64,000 bases of DNA, taken from positions 1,612,001 to 1,676,000 of the forward strand of contig NC_135915.1 of NCBI RefSeq assembly GCF_964194155.1, in the 5' to 3' direction. The position numbers were made by a program, and so were the translations under genes. Source of the DNA: Cetorhinus maximus. Taxonomy: Eukaryota. Numbering within the stretch: position 1 is the stretch's first letter; every line of letters begins with the position of its first letter. Positions 3,285-42,399 of this stretch are shown here, piece after piece. The notes under the pieces are model-generated. The model was not told the DNA's origin. It did no database searches and worked only from the letters and a program-made list of their open reading frames with translations.

Positions 3285-4168
3285 CTTGCGGTTGACATGA
3301 AAATTGGGGTGTTGGTAAATATTGAGGAGGACAGCATTAGATCACAAGAGGATATAGAGGGGCTGGTCAGATGGGCTGATAAGTGAAATATTGAATTTAA
3401 TCTGGATAAGTATAAGGTGATGCACTTGGGCAGGACAAACAATGCACGGGAATGCACGATGAATGCAAGGACCCTGGGATGAACCAAGGATCAGAGGGAG
3501 CTTAGTGTGCATGTCCGCGGGGCAGGTAGATAAGTTGGTTAAGGGGGCATATGGGATTCTTGCCTTTATTAGCCAAGCAATATAATATAAGAGCAGGGAG
3601 GTTATGCTGGAACTGTATAAAACACTGGTTAGGCCACAGCTTGAGTATTGCATGCAGTTCTGGAGTTCGCATTGTAGGAAGGATGTGGTTGTAGTGGAGA
3701 AAGTACAGAGAAGATTTAACAGGGTGTGCCTGGGGTTTAGACATTTAGTAATGAAGAGAGATTGGATAGACTGACATTTATTTCCCTGCAGCAGAGGCGA
3801 TTGAGGGGGGCATGACTGATTTGTATAGGATTATGAGGAGCATAGATAGGGTAGACAGGAAGGGACTTTTCAACTTGGTGGAGGGATCAATTACAAGCGG
3901 GCACAGATTTAATGTAAGGGGCTGGAGGTTTATAGCGGATGTGGGCGGTGGGAATCTGGAATTCAGTGCCTGAAAGGGTTCTAGAGACAGAAACCCTCAT
4001 AATATCTTTGAAGTGTTTGGATGTGCACTTGTGATGCCCTGGCATATAAGGCTATGTGCCTAGTGCTGGAAAATGGAATTAGAATTCTCATGTACTTGTT
4101 TGACCGGTGCAGACTCGATGGTTCGAACGTCACTTTCATGTTCTGTAGGCCTCTATGATTTTATGACT
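3285..4168 (+). mobile_element. CR1 LINE 3' fragment (RT C-terminus + 3' UTR)
   Basis: Translation AVDMKIGVLVNIEEDSIRSQEDIEGLVRWADK and LYKTLVRPQLEYCMQFW; CR1-type tail ending CTCTATGATTTTATGA. Confidence 0.85.
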
Positions 4169-10204: not shown

Positions 10205-10675
10205 CGCTGGACAGTTCACCTCAGCGATGTGACTGCTGCTGGAGAGGTCATCCGAGCAATGTGACTTTTGCTGCAGAGAACACACGAGCGATGTAACTAC
10301 TGCTGGAGAGACAACCCGAGCTATGTAACTACTGCTGGAGAGACCACCCGAGCTATGTAACTGCTGCTGGAGAGACCACCCGAGCTATGTAACTACTGCT
10401 GGAGAGACCACCCGAGCCATGTAACTACTGCTGGAGAGACCACCCGAGCTATGTAAATTCTGCTGGAGAGAACACCCAAGCGATCTTACTAATGCTGGAG
10501 AGATCACCCGAGCCATGTAACTACTGCTTCAGAGACCACCGAGCTATGTAAATTCTGCTGGAGAGAACACCCAAGTGATGTAACTACTGCTGGCGAGACC
10601 ACGTGAGTGATGTGACTGCTGCTGGGGAGACCAAACGATGAATGCAACAACTGCTGGAGGGTACATTTGAGCGAT
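10205..10675. repeat. 32-bp minisatellite, ~14 copies (ACCCGAGCTATGTAACTACTGCTGGAGAGACC)
   Basis: CTATGTAAC recurs at 10321, 10353 and 10385 (period 32). Central copies are near-identical and edge copies are diverged. Confidence 0.9.
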
Positions 10676-11979: not shown

Positions 11980-12122
11980 TCTCTCTCTCTCACACACACA
12001 CACACAGGAAGACGAACAGGCTGACAGAGACAGGCACCTACAGAAAACAGATTCACCTTCAGCGATCTCCCATTGTAGGATGCTGTCATGTTCACATGGC
12101 ACAGAAATACATTGCGTACATG

Positions 12123-12154
<32 letters not shown>

Positions 12155-12646
12155 ATTCGACAGGCAGAGATGTACGCTCTCTCACACACACGCATACATA
12201 TAAAGAGACAAACACGGACAGGCGGACAGATACATAAATAGATGCGTGCACTCCGATAGGCACGCACAAACATACACAAACACATACACACACGCACACA
12301 AAAACCATACATGCAGACAGCCACACACACAGGCGGACATATACTCAAATATGCACCTACGCACATATATGCACGCACGTACACATAGACGGACAGGCAC
12401 TCAGACAGACACAGACGCACACAACCACAGATATACGCACAAACACACAAACACACATACACACATACACATTGTCACACACATTCGCACACACAGACGG
12501 ACAGAAACTTAAATAGACATATTTACTCACACACTCAAATACACACACGCACACACAACCTCACCTTCAGCAATCTCCATCGGCTGGGGTTTATCGTAAC
12601 CGTGGGCGCACAAACACAGACACAAACACACAAACACAAACACACA

Positions 12647-12684
<38 letters not shown>

Positions 12685-12720
12685 AACACACACACACACA
12701 CAGACACAAACAAATAGATG
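11980..12720. repeat. (CA)n-rich low-complexity tract
   Basis: Direct inspection. Confidence 0.9.
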
Positions 12721-13019
12721 CTAAATAATTAAGATAAATTATACACTCTAGCATAAATTGACATGTGTTGTTAAGTTGGGCTTCAGAGCCTATGGAGAGG
12801 AATACAATTGTACTTGTTTCTTTTATTGGGCATAATAACTGATCCACAGGTTATAATGTTCGATCTGACTTGTAAAAGTTAACTTGATATCCAACACAAG
12901 GACGGGTAAATTTAGTGCAAATCGTGAATTGGTCATGATAACTAATACTAAGGATATAAAGTAAAGCTAATTGTTGTATTGGTCTTGAAAAGATTGCAAG
13001 GGGAGAAAAGGAATATACA

Positions 13020-14580
13020 TCGGTATTTCAGCGGATAAGCAACTAAATCAGAAGATTTCTGAACTGTGAGGAGGATAGATTAGCATTTCAAAAGGGCATG
13101 AACAAGTTAGTGGAATGGATAGGCAGGTGGTAGATGAAGTTCAATACAATTAGATGCAAAATGATTAATTTTAGTAGCGAGAACATGAGGAGAGACAGCA
13201 CAAAATGGAGGATACATCTCTGAAGGGGGTATGAGCAGAGGGACAAGCCATTGAAGGTGGCAGTATATTTTGAGAAATCAGTAACTAAAGCAAGTCTGTA
13301 TTTATCGTAAAATAGAGTATAAGTGCAAGGAATTTAGTTCGACTTGTATAAATCACTGGTTTGGACTCTAGTTGAAGTATTACGTCGAGCTCTGGGCAAG
13401 GAATGTGAAGTTACTGCATAGAGGACCGATAAGCTTCAAAGAATGTTTCCAGGTTTGAGCTTGGAGAAGTTACAGGAATTGGTGTTGGGTCCTTTGCTGT
13501 TTGTGGTATATATAAACGATTTGGCATTGAATGTAGGATGATTGATCATTAAGTTCGCGAATGACACGAATATTGGAGGGGTGGTAAATAGTGCATAGGA
13601 TAGCCCCAGATTAAAGGAGGATATAGACACGCTGGTCAGATTGGCTGAACATTGGCAAATGGAATTTAATCCAGATAAGTTTGAGGTGATTCACTTGTGC
13701 AGGACAAGCAAGGCACCGGAGTACTCCATCGATTGTACCTGGGAAGATCTGAGGATCAGAGGGACCTGGGTGTGCATATTCACCGGTCCGTTAAGGTAGC
13801 GGAACATGTAGATAAGCTGGTTAAGAAGACATATGGGATACTTGCCGATATTTTATGAGGCATAGAGAATAAGAGCAGTGAGGTTATGCTTCAACTATAT
13901 AAAACGCTGGTCAGGCCACAGCTAGAGTATTGCGTGCAGTTCTGGAATCTGCATTATGGGAAGGATGTGATTCCACTAGAGAGAGTACAGAGGAGATTTA
14001 CCAGGATGTTGCCTGGACTGGAGAGCTTTAGTTATGAGCGAGATTATATAGACTGGGTTTTGTTTCCCTGGAGGAGAGCAGATTGAAGGGGGACATGATT
14101 GAGTGTATAGAATTATGAGGTGAATAGATGGGCGAGTTAGGAAGGAGCTCATCCCCTTGGTGGGAATAGATTTAAGGTAAGGGGCAGGAGGTTTAGTGGG
14201 GATATGAGGAAGAATTTATTCACAGATTCGATGGGCTGAAAGGGCCATTTTCTGTGCTGTTAACCCCTATGACTCTCTGAATCTAAGTAATGATTGTTTT
14301 CCTTGAAGTAGAGAAGGCTGAGAGGAGATTTGATGTGGTTATATTGAATCATGAGTGATCCTTATTAAACAAGGGGAAGGGGTTAATTTTCTTGAAAGCA
14401 CTCAGGGTGAGGAAGCTCAGTAGTAAGGTTATCAGGAAAAGACGCACTGATAACATTAACTTTTATGTTTTCACACAGCGAGTGTTTTGGATCTGTAAGA
14501 CAGTGACTGAGAGCTGGTGGAGGCAGGTTGAAATGAAGCATTCGTTCGGGAATTCGCCTTCGGGACTCTCCATTTGTTTG
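13020..14580 (+). mobile_element. CR1 LINE fragments; a younger copy (~13480-14280) nested in an older copy
   Basis: VLGPLLFVVYINDL, FANDTNIGG and ORF 13886-14086 LYKTLVRPQLEYCVQFW...LERVQRRFTRMLPGL. The tail CCCTATGACTCT at ~14270 is followed by resumption of older CR1 sequence. Confidence 0.8.
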
Positions 14581-14585
14581 AGGAG

Positions 14586-15297
14586 CTATCAGTCAAATAT
14601 TGAACGGTATGATTGAACGAAACTCCGCGCTAGATGGTGGAAATTGGTTTGTGGTGTCTGATTAATTGAAATGCTGACCGCAGCGGTCGGAGCTTACTGA
14701 TTGGCTGATGCGGCTGTCCGTGATGGTGTTCAGCTCTCTGATGGGCTGATACGTATGTTGTCAATGGTGAAGATCGCTGATTGGCTGAACTATCTGAGCG
14801 TCACTGTTTGCAGCAACATTGGATTGGATGAAGCTGATGCCAGTCAGCTGTTGGAATGAACTGTTTGGCTGAACTGTCTATCAGTCAGCAGTTGTCGCTC
14901 TCTGATTGGTTGAGATGAATGTCGGCGCACAGGAAGAATACCCTGACTGGCCCACGTGACTCTGTGCCAAAAGACTGCAGCTCCCTGATTGGATGAAGCG
15001 ACTGTCAGTTCGCTGGTAGGTCACATTGATTGGCTGAGCTAGCTTTCATTCAGCGAGCGGTTCTCCCTGAATGGCTGAGGTGGCTGTGGATGAAAATCTG
15101 ATGCTGCTCCATTGCCTTCCGCGCCTGTCAGTTATGTGGCTGATTTCCCTGATTTGCACAAGCAGCTGTCAGTTAGCGGCGGCGATCCCTGATTGAGTGA
15201 GGCGACTGTCAGTCAGCATGTGGGTCTCCCTCATTGGCGGAAGAGTCTGTCCGTCAGCAGCGGGGACTCTCTGATTGGCTGAAGCATCTGACAGTCA
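14586..15297. repeat. 41-bp tandem array (~16 units), consensus CTGATTGGCTGA-N5-CTGTCAGTCA-N14: CCAAT box + PBX/PREP-type decamer
   Basis: Unit starts at 14658, 14697, 14738, 14777, 14820, 14861, 14902, 14943, 14985, 15026, 15067, 15108, 15149, 15189, 15230 and 15271. The two boxes are conserved and the linkers are variable. Confidence 0.85.
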
Positions 15298-16197
15298 GGT
15301 TTTTATTCTTCATGAATTGAATAATTGATGTAACCGGATAATTCACCGTTTCCTTGATCTGCTCTCGGAACTTGGACTGAGTCATAGCGTAAATAAATGT
15401 GTTTGTGCAGCAACTTAAACTCTGCAGCATATATCCGACTTGTTGGAATATATATTCAGGATAGGTGAGGTAAATTAACCCTCTCACGTCCATATAGAAG
15501 AATTTTATAACGTACACCGACCACAGGAGGATGAAGGTGACGGATATGGTGAACAGTAAAATCATAGATTTGCTCCTGCTCTCCATCTCTGGGTCACTGC
15601 GATTCTCTCCCTTACTCTGAGCCCTCAGTCCCTTCCGGACTCGACTGGTCACTAAAATGTGTCTGATTGTCAGAGCGTTAATCAGCAGAACTAAACCGAA
15701 TGGGAGCAATGGGTTTAAAACTGTATCAAACCAGGAAAATCCAACCCATCCGGGATCAGTAAAAACGCTTGGCTTTGCCACACAGCCCCAGGGTACATTG
15801 TCGTTTATCTGTCCAGGTACCAGTGTAAAGTAATGGGGGATGTTTTTTAAACTGAGCAGGATGCCGGTTGTCGCTAGAACCACAGCCGCAGTTTTCCCGG
15901 TGCAATATTCTGTTTTCAGCTTCTGGCAACGAATGGCCACAAATCGATCAAAGGCGAAAGTTACGGTGAACCAGACAGAACAGTCCGTGGCAGCAGTAAC
16001 CAGGACAGCGAGAACACGACACACAGGAGTGAGGTTCAGGAAACTCAGTGGGAAATAATAATAATTGATCTTGTTCAGTATGACATTTGTGATAATGTGC
16101 AGTAGATCCGCCGTTGCCATGGCCACCAGGTAGCGAGTGGTGTAGGTGGAGAGGCCGCACTTTCCCCGGGACAGGATCACAATCCTCAGTAAATTAA
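15254..16197 (-). CDS. Exon 2 of a class A (rhodopsin-like) GPCR, GPR139/GPR142-like shark-expanded family; end of TM1 to C-terminus
   Basis: Intact ORF with hydrophobic TM segments and motifs NLL.IVILSRGKCGLS, YLVAMATADLL, DCSVWFTVTFAFDRFVAI, PF.L.L..NALTIRHI, DPEMESR and CCTNTFIYAMTQSKFR. Acceptor CCCTTCTCTCTGACAG|TT with AG at 16199-16198. Confidence 0.9.
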
Positions 16198-16489
16198 CTG
16201 TCAGAGAGAAGGGAGAAGGGACTGGAAATTAATGATTAAACATTCTCCATGTCTGACCCTCACAGGGAGGACAGGGTTTCAGCACCAAAACAGAGTTTGC
16301 ACGCAGGAGGACAGGCAGGCGACTGGCTGGCGATTATTTCAGATTCTAGCTTTGTTTTTAGATTAAAGTTAGCAGCTGAGTTACAATTACTTGTTGATTA
16401 TTATTATATTTAGTAATTTAAAGGTAGGGGGAAATTAAACAAACAATAAAGGAGAAACAACAAAAAAGAGCCAGACGTGAGTTGGTGTT

Positions 16490-16905
16490 TAAAGAGCAGG
16501 AGTTTACCTGTGAAGGAATGGAGTGGATGTATAAAGAGCGATAGTGGAGCAGATGCATATAGAGCAGGAGCTAACCTGTGAGGGAGTGGAGCGGCTGTAG
16601 AAAGAGCGAGAGTGGAGCGGGTGCATATAGAGCAGTTTACCTGTGAGGGAATGGAGCGGCTATATAAAGTGCATAGCGGAGGGCCCCTCTGAGGGAGCAG
16701 GGCGGCTGTATAAAGAGCGAGAGTGGAGCGGGTGCATATAGAAAAGGAGTTACTTGTGAGGGGGCGGAGCGGCTGTATAAAGTGCAAACCGGAGTTTACC
16801 TGTGAGGGAGCGGAGCAGCTGTAAAAAGACTGATAACGGATTTTACCTGTGACGGAGCGGTGCGGCTATATAAAGAGCGCTGCAGAGTTTACCTGTCAGG
16901 GGGCC
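16490..16905 (+). repeat. Tandem monomers (GGAGTTTACCTGTGAGGGAGCGGAGCGGCTGTATAAAGAGC) forming the 5' UTR of a CR1
   Basis: About 8 copies of TTACCTGTGAGGG...GGCTGTATAAAG lying directly upstream of CR1 ORF1. Confidence 0.7.
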
Positions 16906-19490
16906 TGTTCTCACACAGGCACTGGGCGGTGGGGGAATTCGAAAGGAGTGATGTCAGGACAAGGGAGAGAGCTGGTTTGTAGTTAGTGAGTAAGGTGCAT
17001 TCTTTTTTCTCCACTTTAAAACTACATTACAGCAGGTAACAGTCACCGCATTTGACTTTATTTTGCCAGAAAAATGCTAAATCGTTTTTTACTTGGGTTA
17101 AATTTAGGGAAACAGTTTTTTTAAAATAAAAATCAAACAAAACGTATGGCAAAGGGACTTAGTCACGTGATTTGCATGGGTATTCTTCGACACGGATTGC
17201 AATGTGAATGACCACATGTGCAGGAAGTGCCACTGGATTCACCAGCTTGAGCAATTGGTTTCAGAGCGTTAGCGTCAGCCCGAGACACAGCGTTGCATCC
17301 GCGAAGCTGAGAGTTACGTGGACAGAACATTTTTAGATGTGGTCACTCAGCAGCATGAGGAAGTGCGGGAATGGGTGACCAACAGTCAGAAGAAGGGAGG
17401 CAGGAATGTAATGAGGAAAGCCACAGGTATGTAATGTTGAAAGCACCAGGCAGGTAATGAGGAAATCCTATTTTTTTGTGTTGGAAAAGGGTAAGGGTGA
17501 ATGTTCCTCTGGAGAGTGCAACCAGAGTCACATTCCAGGCACTGTGGGTGTTTTGGTTGCACAAGTGGGTAGGGGTAAGTGTGCAAGAGCAATAGTGGAA
17601 GGAGACTAAATAGTAGGGATGCAGACAGGAGCTTCTGCAGCTATAGGCATGACTCCAGAATGGTGTGTTGCCTCCCTGGTAGCAGGGTCAAGGATATCAC
17701 AGAACAGTTGCAGGGCATTCTGAAGAGGGACGGAAAACTCAGAGATCGTAGTTCACATTGGTACAAACGACTTATGTAGAAAGAGTGATGAGGTCCTGCA
17801 AAATGAACGTAGGGAACTTAACAGCAGATTAAAAAGCAGGACCTCAAAGTTTGCAACCTCTGGATGGCCCGCTTGTCACATGAAAGTGAGTATAGGAATA
17901 TGGGGATAGAGAAGATGAATGCGTGGCTCAAGAAATGTTGCTGTGGGGAGGCCTTCTGGTTCCTTGATCAGGGTATGTTTCTGGCGAAGTTGGCACCTGT
18001 ACACGTCGGACAGGTTGCACGTTAACTGGCACAGGAGCAACATCTTTGTGGGGAGGTTTGCTAGTGATGTTGGGGTGAGGTTGTGGGGGGAGGGTAAAAC
18101 TAATTCAGTATTTTTATATAATAATGAGTGAAGATGGAGTACAGGGTGGTGCACAGCCTAATATTGCAGAGGAACTAAGTGAGTCTGGAAGGTAGAGCAA
18201 ACGTAGACCTGTTAAGGCACAGGGGAATAATGCACGGCTGGTTCGCTGCTATTGTAATGAAAGGAGTTTTAAAAGGAGGGCAGATGAATTGAGCATGCTG
18301 ATTAACACATGGGAATATGATATTGTTGCTATCACAGAGACATGGTTGATGGCAGGGCAGGACTGGCAGCTCAATGTTCCAGGGTATAGACTGTTCAGGC
18401 ATGACAGGGGGTGGATGGCGACTTGGTGGTGGGGGGTTAGAAGGGATGCCGGCATTGCACACTTGATAAAGAAGTAAATTAAAGCCTTAAGGAGTGATGA
18501 TATTTTAGAAGGTTCCTCAAATGAGGCCATCTGTAGAGAACTTAATTAGAGGAGGCAATCGCTTTACTGGGGATGCACTAAATACCTCCAAAGAGTCAGG
18601 GGGGCTTGAGGAGCGGATATGTAGGAAAATCTCAGAGATGTGTACAAGGGTATTAAGAGTAGGAAATTTAAATTCACCAATGTAAACTTGGATAGTCTTA
18701 GTGTGAGAGGCTTCGATGTGGTTGAATTCTTAAAGTGCATGAAAGAGAGGTTTTTGAGCCAACGCTAAAGCCCTACGAGAGAAGGGGCGGCACTGGACCT
18801 AATATTAGGGACTGAAGCCAGGAAAGTGGTATAAGTGTCAGTGGGGGAAAGCATTTCGGGGAGAGACACCATAGTTCTTGCCGTTTTAATGTAGTTATTG
18901 AAAATGACAAAGATGGCTTGTAAATAAAGGTGCTGAAATTGGGGAAGGCCGACTTCAATATTTTATGACAGAATGTGGCCAAAGTGGACTGGGAGCAGCT
19001 AATTGTAGGAAAGTCTACAACAGGCCTGCGGGAGTCATTCAGAAAGGAAATAGTGAGAGTTCAGGGTCAACTTGTTTCCTTAGAGGTGAGGGGTAGGACA
19101 AACAATTCCAGGGGATACTGGTTGTCAAGGGATATGGAGGATTGAATAAGGAAAATGAAAAGTGACTGATGGTAGATTCAAGGGGGTTAAAACAGCGGGG
19201 AATCCCTGGAGAAGCATAAAAAGTGCGTGTGATAGTTATCAAGTAGTTAGAAGAGCGAACAGGAGACATTACCAAACACTGGAGGGAAAGGTAATGGAAA
19301 ACCCCAAGGTATTTTATAATTATATTCAGGGCATGAGGATAACCAGGGAAAGAGTAGGACCCATCAGGGAACAAACTGGCAGATTGCGCAGCAACCGAAG
19401 GACATAGGTGACGTTATAAACGCTTACTTTTCATCTGTGATGACTGTGGAGAAGGACGATGTAGCTGCAGAAATCAGGGGGGATCTGGGC
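16490..19490 (+). mobile_element. CR1 LINE 5' half: 5' UTR, ORF1 (zinc finger/leucine zipper + SGNH esterase) and ORF2 AP endonuclease; degenerate, in the intron antisense to the GPCR
   Basis: CRKCHWIHQLEQLVSE, DSRMVCCLPGSRVKDI, VHIGTND, EYDIVAITETWL...WQLNVPGYRLFRHDR and ENPKVFYNYI. Confidence 0.85.
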
Positions 19491-19499
19491 ATTCGAGGG

Positions 19500-22400
19500 G
19501 TGCCAGTGTACTGGAGAAGAGTGAGATAGGTGAAGCGGGGCCGTTAGCAGTGAGCGAGTAGTAGCGGAGCCAATAACAGTGAGAGAGTGAGAGAGGAGCA
19601 AGGCGGCCATTAGCACTGAGAGAGTCAGAGAGCAGTGGGCCATTAGGAGCGAGATAGTGTGAGAGAAACTGCGAGAGAAGCAGCGAGGCTGTTAGCAGAA
19701 TTTGAGATGCGGGTGAGAAATCACCCAGAATGATGTAGGAAACTGCAACACATCTGCCTGAGTGGGTGTTAGATGCAGGAACCCTCAGAACATTTAAGAA
19801 GTATTTAGATGAGCACTTAAAACGGCATTGCATACAGGGTTTGCGGCCAAGAGCTGGTAAATGGGATTAGAATAGGTAGGTACTTGACTCCTGGCACGGT
19901 CACGATGGGCCTTAGGACCTGTTTCTATGCTGTATAACTCGGATAGTCCGTGACCCTCTGACTCTATGAGTGAGAGAGGAACAGAGCAGGCATTGAGAGT
20001 GGGAGAGTGGGAGCAACAGCGGTGCCAATAACAGTGAGAGAGCAAAAGGAACAGCGGGAACATTAACAGTGATACAGTGTGAGTTGAGTGAGCGACCATT
20101 GGACCACACGGAGGAGTGGCCACAGAGCATTACTGAGCAGGGGGAGAGTAGAGAGCATAAAACCAAGAGATCATTAAACCTATTAGCTGAAGTAGGCTAT
20201 ACGGACAACAAAACTGTTCGCCATTTAATGAGGTCATTGCTGACCTGATAATCTTCAACTAGAATTTCCTTACATTTCCCAGAACCTTGTGTTGCCTTTT
20301 TGATTAAAAATCTGCCTTGAATATTACTAATGACCCAGCCTTCAACGCCATCAGCGGTAAATAATCCAACGATTCACTACGATCTGATTGAGGAAATTCC
20401 TCCTCGTCTCTGTGTTAAATAGGTGACACTCTGTGAAAATGCCCTCTCTTCCCCGACCCTCCGCAAGTGGAATCAACTTCTCAGCATCTAGCCTGCCAAG
20501 CTCCCCAAGAATCTTATTTGTTTCAATAAAGCTGCATCTCATTCTTCCAGACTCCAGTGTGTACAGGTCTAACCTACTCAACCTCTCCACAGAAGAAAAT
20601 CCCTACATACCCGGGCTCACTCTAGTGATACTTCTCTGGGCTTCCTCTAATGTCAGTATATGCCTCCTTAGATAAGCGGCCAAAACTGTTTTCAGTATTC
20701 TGGGCATAGCCTAACCTATGTTGTGTAAAGTATTGGAACAGCCTCCCAATTTTTCCCTCCATTCCCTTTGAATAAATGCCAACATTCCTGTCGCCTTCCC
20801 TATCACCTGCTGAAATTATATGTTTGTTTTTTTGGGGGGATTCATGCAGGCGGACTCCCAAATCCCTCTGTGCTGCTGCTTTCTGCAGTCTTTCCCCATT
20901 TAAATAATATTCAGCTCCTCTATTCTTCGTGCCACAGTGCATAACCTCACATTTTCCCACGTTCTTTTCCAGCTGCCAAGTGCGTGCCCACTCACTTAAA
21001 TTATCTCTACCCCTCTGTGGAAACTTTGTGTCATCTTCACCACTTGCCTTCCCGCCTACTTTTGTATCGCCCATTAAAAGGAGATCATTAAAGATTTCAG
21101 AAAGAGGCGATAGACCTTGAAAGAGCAGAGCGGGAAAAGAGCCCGAGAACAGCTATTTGATGGGTATGTGTAGTCGGTAAAATAAAAGTGAAGTCTTTAG
21201 TTTGCTTTGTACTCTGTCGGGTGTTTTTCCTCTGAAATTAGATTCTTCAGTATACATTCGGTCCTGTTGTGCAAAAAAAATAATAACAATCAAGTGCTTC
21301 TAGGGGGAGATTCTTTAAGTGCTAATGTATTTGGTTAATTAATTAATTAAAATACATTAGCGACGGCAGCACAGCTAATGTGTTGCTGCAGCAGCATGTT
21401 GACCTGTTGGACACCAAGTTGATCCAGTGTGAGCACATCAGTAGCAAGAGTTTGCAGCTCGAGAACATTTGGATTCAAGTAACGGAGCTGGTGTCCGAGC
21501 TGCAGACATTGCGCCACATCAGGGAGGGGAAAGTTACCTGGACAGTTTGCTCCAGGAGGTGGTCTCACCCCTTAGATCAGGAAATTAAAATTTGTTCTGG
21601 GTTCAGGGACAGGAGGGTCTGACCACAGGTGATGTAGGTATGGGGACCAAGGGGGTCGCGTTAAAGGGGCCTTGGCCCCTGCAACTGTTCAACAGTGGCT
21701 AGTTTCTTGGAAGATGTGTGGACGAGAGAGGGGACTGCAGGGAGGATGAGCAAACTGTCCACAGCACCGTGGTACAGGCAGCCATTCAAGCTTGGGGTGG
21801 AATTAAGATATTCAGTAGTGGTAGGGGATAGTATAATGGGCGAAGGGTATTGTTCATTGCATGAGTTCCGAAGGGTCTCTTGCCTGCCCGGTGCCAGGAC
21901 ATCTCCTCAGGGTTGGAGAGGAACTGGGAGTGGAGGGGATAAATCAACTTGTCACCATTCACGTTGATGCCAGCGACATTGACAGAACTAGAAACCAAAT
22001 TCTGCTGAATGAACTCGAACAGTTCGTAGCTAAATTAAAAAAGCAAAACATCTGAGATAAATATCTTGGGATTACTACCTGAACAACGGGCAAACTGCCA
22101 TAGGAGAAATAAAGTCACGGATTTAAATTTGTGCTCAAAGTTTGGTGTGGGAAAAATGGGTTTCAGTTTAAGGGGCACCGGCGCCAGTGCTGGGATAGGA
22201 GGGAGCTATTCCGGTGGGAAGGGCTTCACTTTAAAAATGCAGATTCCAGCGTCGTGGGGAATTGAATAACTGGGGCTTTAGCGAGTGTTTTATGATAAAT
22301 AGGTGAGCGGGAGTTCTGGAGAGGGGATTTGTAGGTTTAAGAAGCAAAACGATGTGGGAACTTTGCAGGGCAGCTATTTAGGTAATGATATCCAGAATGT

Positions 22401-25330
22401 GACAGAAAGGGACAGAGTGTAGAAACATAAAAAAACACAACATCAAATTGAGTCAAATGGGGAAGTGGTAATAAAGTGAAAATTGATGCTCATTACTTAA
22501 TTGCTGGCCGTATTCAGAACCAAATAAATAAATTAAAGGCATGAATAGAGGTTAATGGGAATGATCTTATAGCCATTACGGAGTCGTGGTTACCAAGAGA
22601 TCCAAGCTGATAACTAATTATTCAGGGACATGTGATTTTCGAAAGGACAGGCAGGATGAAAATGGTGGTGGGATAGCTATTCTCGACGAGAATGAATACG
22701 TTGGATAGCAAGAAATTATTTTGGATCTGCAGATGTAGAATTCACATGAGTAGAGGTAAGAAATAACAAGGGGGTGAAGACGGTGCTGGGAGTAGTCTAC
22801 AGGGTGCCTAACAGTAACTATACCGTAGGAAAGATAATAAGTCAGGAGATAGTTATGACATGAAACCATGGCAGTATATTAATCATGGGTGACTTGAAAC
22901 TCCATGTTGTTTGGGAAAATCACATCATAGAGTGTATCCGAGAGAGTTTCCTAGAACAATTTGCTGTGGATCCAATCAGGGATTAGTCTACTTTGGATCT
23001 GTTAATGTGGAATGATGCCGGTTAATAAATGTAAAAGGTAAAGTGTAAAAGGTCCCCTAGGAAAAAAATGACCATAACATGGCATAATTTAGCATTCAGT
23101 TTGAGAGTGAATATGGGACCGAAACAACTGTGCTAAACTTACAAACGGAAAATTACAAAGGAATGAAGGTAGAGTTGGCTGGAGTAGACTGGGAAAGGAG
23201 TTCAACAGAAAAGACGGTTGATGAACAATGGCAGACGTTTAAGAAAATTGTTCATGACTCATATCAGCAATGTATCCCTTTGAGGAACTAGGATTGTAGG
23301 ATGGACATAATCAACCATAGTTTGCCAAAGAAGTTGAGGATAGAGTCAAGTTGAAATAAAAATACATACAATGTGGCAAAGGTTTGTGGTAAGCCATAGG
23401 ATTAGGATTTTTTTTTTAAACCAAGAAAAGATGACCAAAATACATTAAAGATTGGGAAAATAAACATTGAGCGATAACTAACAGGCCCTATAAAAACGTT
23501 ACGTAGCAGCTGCTTTAAATATTTAAAAAAATGAAGAGAGAGCCTTAAGTGAACTAATGCCTCTTAGAGAATGAGTCTGTAAAAATGAGAATGGGGAACC
23601 AGGAAATGGCAGAGGAGTGGAATTAATGCTTTGCATCAGTCTTCATGGTACACAACACTAATCCCATTCCTAAAATACTAAATAATCAGGGGGAAAACGG
23701 GGGAAGGGAATAAAGAAATAACAATCACTAGAGAAAAATTGATCAAGAAACTAATGGAGCGAAAAGCCGATAAATCCCTGATGGGTTGCATCCTAGGATA
23801 TTAAAGGAAGTATCTGCAGAAATAATGGATGCTCTGACAGTCATCTTCCAAGAATCGTTTGGTTATGGAAAAGACTCTGAAGATTGGAAATCTGCCAAAG
23901 TTACAAACATATTCAAAAAGGGAGGGAGAAAAAAGCTCATGCAACTATAGGTCAAATAGCTTAACATGAGCAATTGGGGAAAGTTTAAAGTCTATTACAA
24001 GGACTGTGAGAGCAGAGCATTTAAAATACATAATATAATCCAGCAGAGGTAGCATGGCGTGCTGACGGGGAAATCGTGCCTGGTAAATTTATTAGAATTA
24101 TTTGAGGAAGTAAAAAGCAGAATGGGTGAAGGGGGACCAGGATATGCAATATTCTTGTATTTCCAAAAAGGCGTTCAATAAGGTACCAGACACACTGCTG
24201 CTTAATAAGATAAGAGTTCATGATCTTGGGGGTAGTACACTAGCATCGATAGAGGATTTGATAACTAATAGAAGACAGAGAGCTGAGATAAGGGGGGCAT
24301 TTTCAGAATAATATACAGTAAGTAGTGGAGAGCCAAAGGGATCAGTGCTGGGACGACAGTTATTTGCAATATATATTAATGGGTGATATGATGGAAGTGA
24401 ATGTACTATCGCCAAATTTCCAGTTATTAGAGACATTGGTGCGAAGGCAAGTGGTGAGGAAGACTCAAAGGTCCTAAAGTGGAAATAGAAATGTTAAGTG
24501 AGTTGGCAAAACTTGGCAGATGGCATATATTATCAGAAACTGTGGGTCTATGCACGTTGGCAGGAAGAATAGAGGAGCTCAATATTACTTAAATGGAGAA
24601 AGACTACAGAAAGCTGGAGCAGAGAAGGATTTGGAAGCCCGCGTGAATTAATATTAAAATGTTAATTTCAGCAGGTGATAGGGAAAGGAAATAAAATGAT
24701 GGCTTTAATTTCAAAGGGAATGCATTATAAAAATGGGGAAGTCATGCTAGAACTGTACAAGGCACTCAATTAGAATAATGACAACAATTTTGGTCTCCTT
24801 ATTTGGCGAAAGATATGCTGGAAGTGGAGGCAGCCCACAGAAGTTTCAATAGGTTGATGCCGGATGTGGAGGGACGATTTCCTGTGGGCAGATTGATTAG
24901 ATTGGGACTGTACTCATTGGAGCTTAATAGAATGAGAGGAGACCTTATTGAAACATATTGGATTCCTCGGGGCCTTGAGATGGTAGATGCTGAGAAGTTG
25001 GTTCCCTTTGTGGGAGGGTTTAGTCCGAGCCGGCATCATTTCAGAGAAAGGGTTCACCAATTTAATACAGAGATGAGGAGGAATTTATTCTCTCAGAGAG
25101 TCGTGTATGTGTGGAATTAGTTCCCGTAAAGGGATGTAGTTGATCGGTCGTTAAGTATATTTAAGGCTGAGCTCGACTGATTTTTGTCAGTCAGAGAATC
25201 AAAGGTTCTGGGGAAAAGGCAAAATTGTGGAGTTGATGATTATCAGATCAGCAATGATCTCACTGAATGGCGGAGGAGTCTCTATGGGCGGAATGACATT
25301 CTTCTGCTCCGATGTCTCATGGAATTATAA
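19500..25330 (+). mobile_element. Near full-length degenerate CR1 LINE (repeat-rich 5' UTR, ORF1 ~21360, ORF2 ~22480-25200), interrupted by two younger CR1 3' pieces
   Basis: ORF1: CCCSSM, LQLENIWIQVTELVSELQTLRHIRE, VVVGDSI, CLPGAR. ORF2: YDLIAITESWL, MGDLKL, KAFNKVP, GSVLG, RMRGDLIETY. CR1 tail at ~25320. Confidence 0.85.
20165..21072 (-). mobile_element. CR1 LINE 3' fragment inserted antisense into the 5' UTR of another CR1
   Basis: ORF 20622-21074 GDTKVGG...LSEWARTWQLEKNVGKCEVMH and ORF 20351-20590 LDLYTLESGRMR. Confidence 0.85.
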
Positions 25331-25599
25331 AACAATCGACAAGAATATTGGAACACTGTAAGAGTGCTGGCGGATTGCTTCAATATCAGGAACAGGTTGA
25401 CATCTATTTCTGCTGGACCAGCTCCATAGAAACTGGAGCTATATCCAGACATGTAACTTCACACACTCAATATCAAATATCTTCAACCAACAACAAATCG
25501 CTTCCTGTTGTGAAATTATTCACATGGCAAAAGAGAGAGACAGCTCCATGGAATGGAAAGATCACTAATCAAAAAAATCATGATTTCCAAATCGAACCG

Positions 25600-26575
25600 A
25601 TTTCTTTCATTCCAGTTACTGACCCGCACTCAGTTCAATTCTACACCGACAAAAGCTCCCAGTTATACATTATCACTTGAAGCAGGTATTCCACTCTGGA
25701 CACTGACCTACGCTCAATGCAGTTCTGCACTGCCAGATATAACCAATAATAAATGTTGACTGAGGTCAGCTATTCCACTCTGGTAACTTAACAACACTTA
25801 GTACATTTTGAAACCATCAGATACAGTCAGTGAAAGAGTGGTGACTGGGGCCAGGTATTCCACTCTGATTAATGACCCAGACACAGTACAATTCTACACT
25901 GAGAAATAGACCCAATAATAAATGTTGACTGGGGTCAGCTGTTGCACTCTGGTTACTAAAGAACACTTAGTACAATTTGACACCATCAGATAAAATCAGT
26001 GAAAGAGTGGTGACTGGGGCCAGGTATTCCACTCTGATTAATGACCCAGACACAGTACAATTCTACACTGACAGATAGACCCAATAATACATGATCACTG
26101 AGGCCAGGTATTCCACTTTGGTTACTCATCCACACTTAGTAAAATTTGAAATTAACAGTTAGACCCAGAAATATATGGTCACGGGAGCCAAGTATTCCTC
26201 TCTGGATACTAATGCACACTCGGGACAATTTGACACTAACAAATAATGTCAGTGAAAGAGTGGTGACTGGAGTCATATATTCCACTCTGGTTATTAACCC
26301 AAACTTAGGACAGTTTGACACTAACAGATGCAGTCAGTGAATGAGTGTTGACTGGGGCCAGATATTCCACTCTGATTAATGACCCAAACTCAGTGCAATT
26401 CTACATTGACAGAAAGACCCTGTAATACATGGTCACTGGTGCCATGTATTCCAATTTGGTTACTGATGCACACTCAGTACAATTCTACACTGGCAGATAG
26501 ACCCAATAATACATGGTCACTGGGGCCAGGTATTCCACTCTGTTTACTGACCCACACTCTTGGAGATTTTCCTCT
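25600..26575. repeat. 84/85-bp intronic tandem repeat, ~11-12 copies, two unit subtypes
   Basis: TATTCC-type anchor at 25687, 25771, 25856, 25940, 26025, 26109, 26193, 26278, 26363, 26447 and 26531. Confidence 0.9.
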
Positions 26576-26883
26576 GACTACCACTAAACCTTCCTTCAGA
26601 GACTTTCCCTTCACTGAGGTCTAATTTAACGTTTCCAAAGAATATTAAGACTTAATTAATCAGAGAGCCTGTGAGTTACAAACAAAGGCTTATTTTGATT
26701 TGACAAAATTAAATAAAGCCGCAGAGACATTTCCAGACATTTGTATTCAGCAAATTATATCGCTGATTTGGAGTATCTTAACAGTGACCACCAGATCAGC
26801 ATGTAATATTTTCAGTCACAGTTTAAAATGAGAGAGAAGCTCACATAAAGATTTACACAAGTTCAATGGTTATTTTCACTCAC

Positions 26884-26947
26884 CAGGAACACCTATTACG
26901 GCATGGATTGTTTAGAATATTTTCTCAGCCACAAAAATTGGTTCCAT
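26884..26947 (-). pseudogene. Exon 1 of GPCR gene 1 (N-terminus and most of TM1) with an in-frame stop
   Basis: ATG GAA CCA ATT TTT GTG GCT GAG AAA ATA TTC TAA ACA ATC CAT GCC GTA ATA GGT GTT CCT G|GTGAGT. The phase matches the exon-2 acceptor. Confidence 0.8.
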
Positions 26948-27035
26948 CGATTCAGTGCGAAGTGATGTGCCCCGTTGTGCTGCTGGTAATCTATGTGTCT
27001 TAAACGCTGAGGTGACACATTCCCAAAGCCTTTAA

Positions 27036-27041
27036 TTTATA
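27036..27041 (-). promoter_or_regulatory. Candidate TATA box of GPCR gene 1
   Basis: TATAAA on the minus strand ~90 bp upstream of the exon-1 ATG. Confidence 0.45.
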
Positions 27042-29687
27042 TCCTGTGGGATCACCTCAGGGACGTTGAAATTGCAACATCGTTCAAATCATGTTTTAAA
27101 AATTGAACAAAGAGATTATGACATTGAGCTGAGTGAAACAATATATTTGTATGTAAATGGAGCTGCGAGGTTCCAAAGACTGGACTTTACTTATCAAATT
27201 AATTAACTATTAAACAAACAGGAGCTGTATTCACCCGGATAATATGCTGTCTACTCAAACACCATCAGTCCCATTTCTAGATTCCCTATTGTTTCAGTGA
27301 TATCCGTCACTTGACTGTTACCATTTATGGTTTAAATAAAAAAATGTTAGAGCTCCTCTTTTCACACTGTTCTATTACACCCTGGGATTTAGCTGTCCTG
27401 TTTTAGAATTGACATTCAGTTGTGCGATTACAGCGGGTTTAGGGTGTCAATTTACGACTAAATTCAAACAATTAAGTTATCAGGAAATATTTAAAATCTC
27501 CCAAAAATTCAGTCCACACCTCAATCAAATGCGTATCTATCTCACGATCTCTCTCTCTCTTCCCATCTATTTGTGTCTCTTTTTCTCTGCACGTTTCTCT
27601 CTCTCACTCCTTCTGTGTTTCTCTCTTTTCCCCTTTGTCACTCTTGCACTCTTTATCTCTCTCTCTCTCTGCTTTTTTTTCGCTCACTGTCTCCCCCATT
27701 CTCTTGTTCTTCCACTCTGTTTATCTCTCTCTGGCTCTCGCTCTCCCTTTGTCTGCTTCTCTCCCTCTCACTTCCCCACTCTCGCTTTCTCTCCCATTCA
27801 CTCTCTCTCTCTCCCTTTCTCTCTCAATCCATCTGTTTCCCTCTCTCACTATCTCTGCCTCTTTCCTTCTCTCTCTGACTCTCTTTGCTTCTCTCTCCAT
27901 ATTTCTCGGTCTTACTCTCTGATTTTTTTCATCTTTCTCTTCCCTCTCGCTCTCTTTGTGTGAATGTGTGTGTGTCCGTTCGTGTGCATATGTATGTGTG
28001 TGTGTTGGTGGGTGTCTCTCTCTCTCTCGCGTTTCTCATGCTCTTTCAATCTGTGTATGTGTATCTATGTCTGTATTTCTGCCTCTCTCGATCTCCTTCT
28101 CTGAAACTCTCCTATCTGCCTATCTGTCAGTCTGTCTATATATCTATCTTTCTTTCTTTCTATGTATGTATCTATCTATGTATCTATTTATCTATCTATC
28201 TCCGTGTTTTTGTCGCTCTCTGACACTCTATCACACTCTGCCTCCCTCCACCTCTCTCTCGCATATTTTCTCGGTTTTTCTAACTCTTTCTCTCTATGCT
28301 TCTCTCGCTCTGGCTCTATCTCTCACACTTCCCTTCTCGTTGTATCGCTCCTGCTGGCTCTTCCTCTTCCTCTTTCTTCTATCTGTCTCTCTATCCCCAT
28401 CTTTCTCTCCATCTCTCCCTCTGCGTGCCAATCTCTCTTCGCCTCCCTCCCTCGGCCTCCTTCTCAGTCTCTCTCCCTTTGTCTCTCTGTTCTCTTTGTT
28501 ACTTTCACTTTCTGTTTCTCTCTCTTTCTCGCTTGCTAAACTTCCCTTTGTCTGTTTCATTGCCTGTCTCTATCTCTCTGCCTCTCCTTCTCTGCCTCTG
28601 CTTATCTGTCCCTCTCTATTTCCCTTTCTTTCTCTCTCTCACTTTCTCTCTCACTTTCGCTCCCTCTCTCCCTCTCTCTATCTCTCTGTCTCTCTCTAAC
28701 ACTGTGTGGCTCACTCTGCCACTCTTTTTGCTTCTCTCTGTCTTTTCTCTCCCCTTCTCCTTTTCAGTGCCTATCTGTCTCTCTCCTTCGCTCTCTCCCT
28801 GTGTCACTCTCGCTGTTTATCTAATTCTCACTCTCTCTCTTCCTGCCTATGACCCCCACCCTTTCTCTTTCTCTCTCGACCTATGCAAGACACCTCTCAT
28901 TCTCTTCTCTCTCTGTGAATATCTCTCACTATGTCCCTCTGTCTCATTCTCTCTCTCTCTGTCTCACTCTCACACTTTATTTCTAACTCCGTTTCTCTTT
29001 TTGCCTCTCTCTCTCTCTTTTCTCTCCTCCTCTCTCTCTTTCAATGTTTCTCCTCTCTCTCGCTCTCTCTCTCTCTATCCCTCACTCTCTCCCCCTTCCC
29101 TCTCTCTTTCTCTCTGGCTGTGTCTCTAAATCTCACTCCCCCCGTCTCCCTCTGTCCCCCTTACACGGTTCATTCCCGCCTGTCTCTCAATTCGCTTTCT
29201 CTCACTATCTCTATTCCCCGCTTTCTCTATCTCTCTCTCTCTCCCTCTCTCTTTCTCTCTCGCCCTATGACACACAATCTGCTTCCCTCCTTTTCCCTCT
29301 TTCAATGACTCATTCATTCTGTCTCTCTGTCTGCCTCTCTCTCTCTCTGTCTCTGCCACACCCTCTCTTTCGCTCCAAGCAATTCTCTTTTTTTCTCCCC
29401 TTTCATCGCCCTCTCTCTCTCAATCCTCTCCCTCTCTATTTCTGTGTGGTTACCTACGATTATATGTGTACGGGCTTTTCTATCTGTATCCTCTCCAGCT
29501 CACAATTGAAAATTATATATTTTTCCCTTTCTATCCATTTCTTTCTCCCTCTCTTTCACCCTCTCTCGCTCTGAGTGTGTGTATGTGTGTCCTTGGATAT
29601 CAATCTCTCTTCCACACGTTTCTCTGTCTCTTTCAACCTGTGCATGTATCTCTGTCTGTCTTTCTGCCTCTCTTGCTATCCTTGCCA

Positions 29688-40877: not shown

Positions 40878-41745
40878 TTACTTAATGAATTGAAGAATTA
40901 TAGTAAACGGATATTTCAGCACATTTTTGGTCTCTGATCTTAGTAGGGGGTCATGGCATACACCGCAGTGCCTGTGCAGGAACGCAGCAGGTTCTGCATG
41001 AAGGCCATATCCTGAACAAAAGAATGCAGAAGCACAGAATAATACCCCAAAATTTTCATCCTGCCCCACTTAGAATAAATAATTAACATTGCCCATAACA
41101 GGAAGAAATTTGCCAACATAAGAAACAGTAAAATTGATTGATTTCCTTAGACTCCCCATCTCTGCAACTCTCGCCACTGCTGTGAGCCTACAGTCTCATG
41201 TGGGCTGTCTTGGTCACTAAAATGTGTATGACAGTGAAAACGTTGAGCAGCAGTATCAGGTCAACGGCACACCCGGGGTTAGAATGTTGTGGAGGCATTC
41301 GACTGTGGTCCAACGCGGAGATTCCAGAACTTAAATTTTTAACCCAACAAACCAAGGGGTGTTCAAATGCTGATACCCACCCGTTAAAATAATAGACCAG
41401 AATATGTTATTTATACAGTTCATCACAGCCACAGTTCCCAGCATCACAGCTGCTGTTTTCTAATTGGCATATTTATCTTTCAGCTTCTGGCAACAAATTG
41501 GTGAAAGGTGAAGGTTAAGGCAGAACAGTCAGCGGCTGTAGAAAACAGGATGGAACGGGTGTTACACAGGGGGATGGACTTCAGGAAATAAAACTGTTCC
41601 CAATAAACAGTCGGAATGTCTCTCAATATCAGGCCGAATATAACGACCAGTAGATCCGCCACTGACATGACCATTAGTAAACAAGTGAGACATTTGGAGA
41701 GACCACAACTTTTGCACTTGTGGATCACAATCGTGAACGTGTTAA
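40878..41745 (-). pseudogene. Exon 2 of a second GPR139/GPR142-like GPCR, decayed
   Basis: NTFTIVIHKCKSCGLSKCLTCLLMVMSVADLLVVIF...AADCS..TFTFHQFVA, KTAAVMLGTV and NVLKYPFTIILQFIK*. Several frameshifts. The acceptor is mutated to CTGACCG|TT. Confidence 0.85.
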
Positions 41746-42399
41746 CGGTCAGGAATGGAAATACACAATGGCATTTTACATCAGGCTGGGGCCAACGTTA
41801 CCAGCTTGATCAAAAGTTATTGATAGGTGCTCCAGAACCCTGTGATGTATTGTGATAAATGGACATGAAAGAACTAATGAGATGTTTCTTTGATACAATG
41901 GGATGAAGCAAAGAGTAAATAACAAGAACTGGTCGCAGACAGGCGACGCAGAAATGACAGGGGCAACATATGTGATGGTGCTAACCAGCAGTGACAGGGT
42001 ATCGGGGTTAACCGTGGTGATGGGTGAAGTGAGTAGTGATGGGGGAACATGGGTGGACAGGAGCCAGGCGTGATAGATGTGTTACAGATAGAGGAGAAAT
42101 TGGGAATAATTTCTCCTTAGATCCTGTTCTCTATTGAAGTTTCCTGAGCAGGAATGCTTTAACCACTTCAGTGCTGTATTTATTTAATGAAAAACAGTCG
42201 GGCGATGTTACCCGAAGCAGAAATAGGCCATCTTAGTGATAGTGTGAATGTATGACACCAATTTTGGAATAGTCTGGTTCAGCCTGAAACAGTTACCGGG
42301 AGAGGGATGGAATTGGGGGACAGGGTTTGGGGTGGGGATTTAAAACAAATATCCAACCTACCCAATATTTTATTTGAATGAAAGAGGTTTCAGATATGT

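What the first reader, a model, noticed from the sequence alone, without database searches (positions are those of the whole stretch)
14586..15297. Helically phased 41-bp array of NF-Y + PBX/PREP composite elements abutting the GPCR stop codon
Seen: 16 units in which two boxes stay conserved while the linkers vary freely. On the minus strand they read TGACTGACAG-N5-TCAGCCAATCAG. The period of ~41 bp is about 4 helical turns, which places all sites on one DNA face. The ORF's last ~14 codons run into the array. Known: TGANTGACAG next to CCAAT is the PBX-PREP/NF-Y 'extended decamer' promoter motif, and ERV9/LTR12 U3 enhancers use ~40-bp CCAAT repeats. Inference: conserved boxes with variable linkers suggest selection for protein binding. 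It could be a 3' enhancer, a chromatin-opening or boundary element, a promoter for a downstream or antisense transcript, or a captured LTR enhancer.
Basis: partly seen in the sequence, partly recalled or inferred. Interest (0 to 1): 0.75.

Follow-up and report, generated by a model that had tools for sequence, protein, structure and literature searches.

The report
Tandem TALE/NF-Y array behind shark receptor
Directly after the end of a shark receptor gene lie sixteen worn copies of a known two-part docking site for gene-activating proteins, shared with related genes in other sharks and probably a built-in enhancer, although this particular copy seems to be decaying.

Summary
The array is real: 16 units, period about 41 bp, plus two faint ones. 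Two boxes are far better conserved than spacer and linker (pairwise identity 0.73 and 0.59 against 0.37 and 0.36). Simulated uniform or CpG-driven decay never gave this (0 of 150 each), nor did 4 control arrays in the window. The unit has the published GAnnGAC-11bp-CCAAT geometry of PBX/PREP + NF-Y + Sp2. It starts at the ancestral stop codon of a GPR139-like GPCR. Read-through tails of five basking-shark paralogues translate the same array, and contigs of four organisms cover it in register at about 85%. It is a frozen, co-duplicated feature of one receptor subfamily. Corrections: sites are not on one helix face at 10.5 bp/turn; the read-through comes from a one-base insertion in this copy; this gene has a stop in exon 1; box-specific constraint between paralogues was not seen. 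Best reading: a TALE/NF-Y enhancer or chromatin-opening array for a tandem receptor cluster (0.45). Main rival: a passive relic of a captured LTR-like enhancer (0.3). No binding or expression data.

The parts
14645..15298 (-). Array of 16 units of about 41 bp, each DECA (PBX/PREP-type) - 11 bp from GAC to CCAAT - NF-Y box - 14-bp linker; first unit begins at the gene's ancestral stop codon (15297-15295)
   Evidence: geometry
14556..14644 (-). Two further, heavily worn units; homologous sequence in other organisms reaches at least to 14567
   Evidence: 4-5 mismatches in the DECA core; table 8 (X5 record 10, X8 record 24)
15254..16197 (-). Exon 2 of a GPR139-like rhodopsin-family GPCR; a one-base insertion just before the ancestral stop makes it read 14 codons into the array
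   Evidence: 7tm_1 E 5e-18; 1557 homologues; splice acceptor; one base left out at 15298/15305 in other copies
26884..26947 (-). Exon 1 of the same GPCR (64 bp, GT donor); in-frame stop at codon 12, so this copy is probably a pseudogene; TATA-like word about 95 bp upstream
   Evidence: tblastn with P0005; sequence and translation
13311..14554 (+). Dispersed-repeat (LINE-like) 3' fragment abutting the distal end of the array; hides whatever lay beyond the array
   Evidence: 73% match to 3293-3943; loose ends at 14554 in X6 and X8; CR1/L2 label is recalled, not from a call
16493..18474 (+). Probable LINE 5' end inside the GPCR intron, antisense to it: 46-bp tandem array, broken ORF1-like frame, weak endonuclease match; separate from the finding
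   Evidence: Exo_endo_phos E 0.0067, below cut-off; LINE label partly recalled

Best explanation
A homotypic enhancer / chromatin-opening array. Each 41-bp unit is a docking site for a PBX-PREP dimer and an NF-Y trimer at the 11-bp spacing that lets Sp2 bridge them (sequence match shown; binding inferred from mammals and zebrafish). One such site was amplified to 16-18 copies long ago, and selection for protein binding kept the boxes while spacer and linker eroded (contrast shown; cause inferred). The array then froze, came to lie at the stop codon of one subfamily of shark GPR139-like receptors and was duplicated with the genes into a tandem cluster (linkage and sharing shown). There it most likely keeps chromatin open and acts at a distance on the gene's own promoter 11.7 kb upstream or on neighbours in the cluster (inferred). 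The period is best read as close packing of one complex per unit (NF-Y alone covers some 30 bp and bends DNA about 80 degrees), not as one-face phasing (inferred). The copy in this window sits on a probable pseudogene and is wearing out.
For: Box/linker contrast survives two null simulations and four control arrays. Shared: tails of P0003, P0004 (P0123 has the same tail) and P0005 match the array's translation at 19 of 35, 35 of 43 and 13 of 24 positions, P0121 at 15 of 27 in another frame; these proteins and the window's fall in one clade of 8 rows (SH-aLRT 97, quick tree, 95 of 124 rows); four of the five share a 5.7-Mb longest contig and accessions XP_078390300-303. Contigs of 4 of 4 laid runs, four organisms, cover the array, some in register over 237-322 bases at 82-85%; two records bridge array and ORF. 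With the letters that the other copies show at 19 listed places, exact CCAAT rises from 8 to 11 and full composites from 1 to 4 of 16. In zebrafish 5 of 8 NF-Y/TALE elements drove tissue-restricted expression, and two tested with mutated sites lost it (10.1101/720102 section 9).
Against: No binding, accessibility or RNA data. Between paralogues the boxes are not visibly spared: 11 of 22 box codons and 9 of 17 linker codons vary among the four aligned tails (p=1), and 11 of 19 listed differences from other copies fall in boxes, as expected by chance (54%, p 0.8; only 40 of 692 rows were shown, and two of the four tails may come from broken genes). Only 1 of 16 units is a perfect composite here. 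Unit-to-unit linker divergence (JC 1.42) is about eight times the copy-to-copy divergence (0.17), so the contrast may have been set before the array served this gene. DECA/NF-Y elements alone were weak enhancers in HEK293 cells (1 of 7; PMC6023610), and PREP is mainly promoter-associated.
Confidence: 0.45

Rival explanations
1. Passive relic: the array is the U3-type enhancer or promoter of an old LTR element or other mobile element. The boxes were selected inside that element; a piece landed at the receptor's stop codon and has since been copied with the gene without serving it.
For: Same architecture as LTR12/ERV9 U3 (5-17 tandem units of about 41 nt with conserved CCAAT; PMC11853044). Sharp start at the stop codon, where other subfamilies have a different 3' sequence (8 of 20 long tails are of another type). 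Unit divergence far exceeds copy divergence. No box-specific constraint between paralogues.
Against: Depth runs on across the array-ORF junction and contigs bridge it, and no loose end at the junction is among the 24 shown of 943, so the copies seen look receptor-linked rather than dispersed. No TATA-like word within or at the distal end of the array. In human LTRs co-bound by TALE and NF-Y (MER57) the sites are not in the canonical geometry (PMC12065363). Register is kept over hundreds of bases in four organisms.
Confidence: 0.3
2. Promoter of a downstream (same-strand) or antisense transcript: DECA-then-CCAAT points away from the receptor gene, as the motif points towards the start site in the mouse Sp2 promoter; the start would lie left of 14556.
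For: DECA-CCAAT with several CCAAT boxes is typical of promoters (Sp2 promoter: five CCAAT, three with DECA); co-occupied sites associate with promoters.
Against: No Pfam-recognised host gene among the 93 longer frames scanned that start left of 14600, only reverse-transcriptase pieces and one sub-threshold hit; 16 units over 650 bp is far more than such promoters hold; CpG o/e 0.58 is not unusual for the window (22 of 95 bins are as high). The distal end is cut by a repeat here, so a lost start site cannot be excluded.
Confidence: 0.15
3. Ordinary old minisatellite; the motif likeness is chance and linkers decayed faster through CpG loss.
For: The window holds other degenerate arrays with equally constant unit length; boxes are not spared between paralogues. 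The CpG simulation started from the observed consensus (2 CpG); a CpG-richer ancestor was not simulated.
Against: Block-wise conservation absent from 4 of 4 control arrays; 0 of 150 CpG simulations reach it; no neighbour effect (identity 0.52-0.54 at lags 1-7); exact published two-factor geometry.
Confidence: 0.06
4. A 3'-UTR RNA element: the two boxes are partly complementary and could form repeated hairpins or protein-binding sites in the mRNA.
For: The next minus-strand AATAAA beyond the stop is at 14220, so a transcript could include the array.
Against: Folding z-scores +0.79 (minus) and -0.69 (plus); no consensus pairs among the 16 units; no Rfam match in 12000-28000.
Confidence: 0.04

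Closest known systems
DECA-CCAAT composite element bound by PBX/PREP (TALE), NF-Y and Sp2 (10.64898/2026.02.16.706105; PMC6023610; 10.1101/720102; PMC7793273)
   Same: GAnnGAC core, same orientation, 11-bp spacer, CCAAT; variable 'nn' and spacer positions.
   Different: In the passages read the element occurs in a few copies in promoters and enhancers (three in the Sp2 promoter); here 16-18 in regular tandem at a gene's 3' end, with most units imperfect.
ERV9/LTR12 U3 enhancer array (PMC11853044)
   Same: 5-17 tandem units of about 41 nt, each with a conserved CCAAT; long-range, chromatin-opening action at the beta-globin locus.
   Different: Partner sites there are GATA, MZF1, MARE or E-box, not DECA (here 0 TGGGGA and 3 GATA words in the array); primate retroviral origin; no U3-R-U5 layout seen here. 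An analogy, probably convergent.
MER57 LTRs co-bound by NF-Y and PKNOX1/PBX (PMC12065363)
   Same: Repeat-borne NF-Y plus TALE sites.
   Different: TALE site lies 3' of CCAAT, about 50 bp away; not the 11-bp geometry, and not described as tandem in the passages read.
Elasmobranch 'probable GPR139' receptor expansion (automatic NCBI names)
   Same: Host gene is a member, 65-81% identical to the best 120 of 1557 hits except one at 58%; best PDB match is GPR139 at only E 1e-8.
   Different: The array is seen only for one subfamily; orthology to GPR139 itself was not tested.

Membership tests
DECA-CCAAT (TALE/NF-Y/Sp2) composite element | GAnnGAC core 5' of CCAAT on the same strand | tested here: met
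   Consensus has it; at most one mismatch in 10 of 16 units, exact in 2 of 16
DECA-CCAAT (TALE/NF-Y/Sp2) composite element | 11-bp spacer | tested here: met
   13 of 22 DECA-CCAAT pairs within 30 bp are at 11 bp, none at 10 or 12; rule
DECA-CCAAT (TALE/NF-Y/Sp2) composite element | CCAAT box | tested here: met
   Exact in 8 of 16, at most one mismatch in 15 of 16
DECA-CCAAT (TALE/NF-Y/Sp2) composite element | Occupancy by PBX/PREP, NF-Y and Sp2; activity lost on mutation | not testable with these tools
   No ChIP, ATAC or reporter data
DECA-CCAAT (TALE/NF-Y/Sp2) composite element | Ongoing conservation of the sites between orthologues or paralogues | tested here: inconclusive
   Array kept in register at about 85% but boxes not spared in small samples
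ERV9/LTR12 U3 enhancer | 5-17 tandem units of about 41 nt with CCAAT | tested here: met
ERV9/LTR12 U3 enhancer | GATA and MZF1 sites within the units | tested here: not met
   0 MZF1-type and 3 GATA words in 16-18 units
LTR of any family | U3-R-U5 layout, termini, target-site duplication, dispersed solo copies | tested here: inconclusive
   No TATA-like word at the distal end, which is cut by a repeat; copies look receptor-linked; genome not held
LTR of any family | Sequence match to a catalogued LTR | not testable with these tools
   No repeat library; exact motif pattern had 0 hits in viral and metagenome contigs
Active minisatellite (VNTR) | Neighbouring units more alike; uniform column divergence | tested here: not met
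   Flat identity by lag; block-wise conservation
Structured RNA element | Stable fold and covarying pairs | tested here: not met

The most novel reading that the evidence does not exclude
Each gene of a tandem subfamily within a very large, apparently undescribed shark GPCR expansion carries its own 16-fold TALE/NF-Y/Sp2 array as a 3' locus-control element: a natural multimer of a pioneer-factor module that opens or selects receptor genes in the cluster, with the same unit length and copy number that primate LTR12 enhancers reached independently.
Probability: 0.2. Interest if true: 0.75.

Novelty: new variant of a known kind. Interest (0 to 1): 0.5.

Why it matters
It shows the DECA-11bp-CCAAT grammar, known from mammals and zebrafish, written into a cartilaginous-fish genome as a long regular multimer. 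That gives a natural substrate to test how many TALE/NF-Y/Sp2 complexes pack on DNA and why NF-Y arrays settle near 41 bp (LTR12 units about 41 nt; a 43-bp peak of double CCAAT boxes with unknown partners). If functional it is a first handle on the regulation of a receptor family with well over a thousand database members for which my searches found no paper. If it is a relic, it marks an uncatalogued element and dates a subfamily.

Tried and rejected
Own genome not held, so no genome-wide count of arrays. Exact motif pattern: 0 hits in viral contigs and metagenome contigs. Receptor alignment against metagenome contigs: 139 pattern matches, none confirmed. A search for further proteins with array-derived tails could not be made in the large protein database; a 41-residue array translation found 0 hits among the 50%-identity representatives, which says little because such clusters collapse the family. 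Sequencing runs: no RNA holder listed; this is no evidence on expression. Summed contig depths are not copy numbers; I use only cover, bridging and the fact that some array contigs (depth 238-338) are several times deeper than many others (20-90). One-face helical phasing: rejected at 10.4-10.6 bp/turn. Length constraint: looked significant with an indel rate from dispersed repeats (P 0.0007-0.15 by assumed ratio) but failed the 32-bp control array; dropped. Coding role of the tail: rejected, three frames and a stop are used among paralogues. RNA structure: rejected. CpG island: not distinctive. Absolute dating with the epaulette-shark rate (7e-10 per generation, PMC10587355): rejected, since even the copy-to-copy divergence would need about 1e8 generations. 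Earlier scan notes: 4 answered look-ups, nothing. Literature searches for the shark receptor expansion or a tandem DECA-CCAAT array: 0 papers; 3, none relevant by listing; 0; word searches in three papers found no mention. The careful tree did not finish; the quick tree was used, 29 of 124 proteins left out by my trimming rule. I grouped P0122 with the array-tail set in that tree although it stops before the array and shows no tail.

Full report
Setting. The window is shark DNA, rich in simple repeats and broken retrotransposons. The minus-strand frame next to the finding is a rhodopsin-family receptor (7tm_1, E 5e-18) with 1557 database relatives; the named ones among the best 120 are elasmobranch proteins, mostly auto-named 'probable GPR139'. 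The gene has two exons: 26947-26884 and 16197-15254, with a 10.7-kb intron. Exon 1 has an in-frame stop at codon 12, so this copy is probably a pseudogene; an assembly error or allele cannot be excluded. No whole genome was held.

The observation. Sixteen units lie between 14645 and 15298, 10 of 15 steps being 41 bp, with two faint units down to about 14556. Units are 52% alike on average and neighbours are no more alike than distant ones (0.52-0.54 at lags 1-7), so the array formed once and froze. Pairwise identity is 0.73 in the CCAAT box, 0.59 in the DECA box, 0.37 in the 5-bp spacer and 0.36 in the linker. Neither uniform decay nor tenfold CpG decay from the consensus reached this (0 of 150 each; a CpG-richer ancestor was not tried). 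Conserved columns form blocks (0 of 5000 permutations), unlike 4 of 4 control arrays in the window. Two parts of the first description fail. The sites are not on one face of B-DNA: coherence is R=0.11 at 10.5 bp/turn and high only near 10.25. Constancy of unit length is matched by a control array (35 of 46 steps).

What the unit is. The published rule for the TALE/NF-Y/Sp2 element is GAnnGAC-11bp-CCAAT, with 11 bp optimal and 8 or 13 bp predicted to break the complex (10.64898/2026.02.16.706105; abstract and sections 3, 16, 18, 22, 24 read); an 11-bp upstream position is also stated in PMC7793273 (passages). The array has this orientation and spacing: 13 of 22 DECA-CCAAT pairs within 30 bp are at 11 bp, none at 10 or 12. 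The boxes are worn: CCAAT exact in 8 of 16, GAnnGAC in 2, both in 1. The match of a two-factor geometry together with the conservation pattern makes it very likely (my estimate 0.9) that selection for TALE and NF-Y binding shaped the array at some time. That is inference; no binding was measured.

Relation to the gene. The array starts at the family's usual stop position: 77 of the 116 proteins with the TM7 motif end exactly 31 residues after it, and here the first three bases of the first DECA box are that TGA. This copy has one extra base before it; contigs from all four laid runs lack a base at 15305, and two also show one at 15298. Of 20 proteins with longer tails, five basking-shark ones translate the array (P0003 19 of 35, P0004 35 of 43, P0005 13 of 24 positions in one frame, P0123 with the same tail as P0004; P0121 15 of 27 in another frame), eight have a different 3' sequence and seven are unrelated. 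P0122 stops before the array. So the 14-codon overlap is not a coding feature. The window's protein, those six and one unnamed protein form a clade (SH-aLRT 97; quick tree of 95 of 124 rows). P0003, P0004, P0005, P0122 and P0123 share a 5.7-Mb longest contig and consecutive accessions, which suggests a tandem cluster. Whether other subfamilies carry the array further downstream is unknown.

Sharing. Contigs of four runs from four coded organisms cover all 30 bins of 14350-16350. Single contigs align in register across 237-322 bases of the array at 82-85%, one at 1 difference in 151 bases, and two records bridge array and coding sequence (32 of 4411 pieces were shown). Each unit thus keeps its identity between copies (JC about 0.17) while linkers differ between units by about 1.4. 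The array is much older than the duplications that spread it, which fits either long host selection or capture of a ready-made element.

Evidence against present function. Among four aligned tails, 11 of 22 box codons and 9 of 17 linker codons vary (p=1). Of 19 differences shown by all four runs, 11 are in boxes, the chance share; 8 of these 11 have the unit consensus in the other copies, and counting with their letters raises full composites from 1 to 4 of 16. This says that the window's copy decays without regard to boxes, as a pseudogene's would. It does not show that intact copies are constrained; samples are small and only 40 of 692 rows were shown. No RNA structure was found and no host gene downstream (115 of the 168 longer frames in 1-27500 were scanned). 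A LINE-like fragment abuts the distal end at 14554 and hides any start site or LTR terminus.

Mechanism. Most likely (0.45) the array is a homotypic TALE/NF-Y(/Sp2) platform that keeps chromatin open and enhances the receptor's promoter 11.7 kb upstream or cluster neighbours. Support by analogy: 5 of 8 zebrafish NF-Y/TALE elements were tissue-restricted enhancers (10.1101/720102, passages and section 9), while only 1 of 7 worked in HEK293 cells and the authors favour a role in access (PMC6023610, passages). NF-Y covers some 30 bp and bends DNA about 80 degrees, so one complex per 41 bp is near close packing, and a loaded array would coil rather than present one face (inference). Rivals: passive relic of an LTR-like enhancer (0.3), promoter of a downstream or antisense RNA (0.15), ordinary minisatellite (0.06), RNA element (0.04).

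Comparison with known systems. It works like the DECA-CCAAT element and meets its sequence criteria; occupancy is untested. It resembles LTR12 U3 in unit length and number (5-17 units of about 41 nt; PMC11853044, passages) but lacks its partner sites and is not filed there. Human LTRs with TALE and NF-Y do not show the 11-bp geometry (PMC12065363, abstract and passages). Double CCAAT boxes in human cells peak at 19, 26, 36 and 43 bp (PMC4889920, passages). My searches found no paper on a tandem DECA-CCAAT array or on this shark receptor expansion (word searches in PMC12208981, PMC11979771 and PMC8455134); the library lacks most subscription papers, I read no supplements, and motif logos in figures could not be seen. 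The labels CR1/L2 and the olfactory-type 'receptor choice' idea are recalled or inferred, not from calls.

Verdict. A real, non-chance, shared feature: a new arrangement (16-fold tandem, 3' of a receptor subfamily) of a known regulatory element, with present function open. New variant of a known kind; interest 0.5.

Noticed in passing
window 40880-41760 (-): A second, much more divergent GPR139-like copy (about 40% identity to the family) with frameshifts and stops; no 41-bp array behind it.
   Followed up: partly
protein database: The GPR139-like family has at least 1557 clusters at 90% identity, the named best hits all from sharks and rays; no paper on it was found, and PMC8455134 speaks of a relative paucity of GPCRs in cartilaginous fishes. 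The family itself may deserve study.
   Followed up: partly
window 15302-15307 (-): An AATAAA word lies in the last codons before the ancestral stop; 68 of 116 homologues have Asn-Lys at this place, which could be a poly(A) signal inside the coding end. If used, the array would lie outside the mRNA.
   Followed up: partly
window 15140-15148: A 9-bp stretch that looks like a local duplication is missing in one contig each of X1, X5 and X8, so that unit is 32 bp (about three turns) in some copies.
   Followed up: no
window 16493-18474 (+): Probable LINE 5' end in the receptor's intron, 300 bp from the splice acceptor, with a 46-bp tandem array.
   Followed up: partly
window 25615-26559: 84/169-bp degenerate tandem array in the intron just downstream of exon 1, with CCAAT words at 25743, 25912 and 26081; column clustering p 0.06.
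   Followed up: partly
window 56054-58400 and 10223-10659: Three 32-bp tandem arrays (47, 20 and 13 units) with near-constant unit length, used only as controls.
   Followed up: partly
table 5, X6 and X8: Contigs that match only isolated array units (near 14742 and 14986-15009) and then the coding region hint at more distant paralogues with their own arrays.
   Followed up: no
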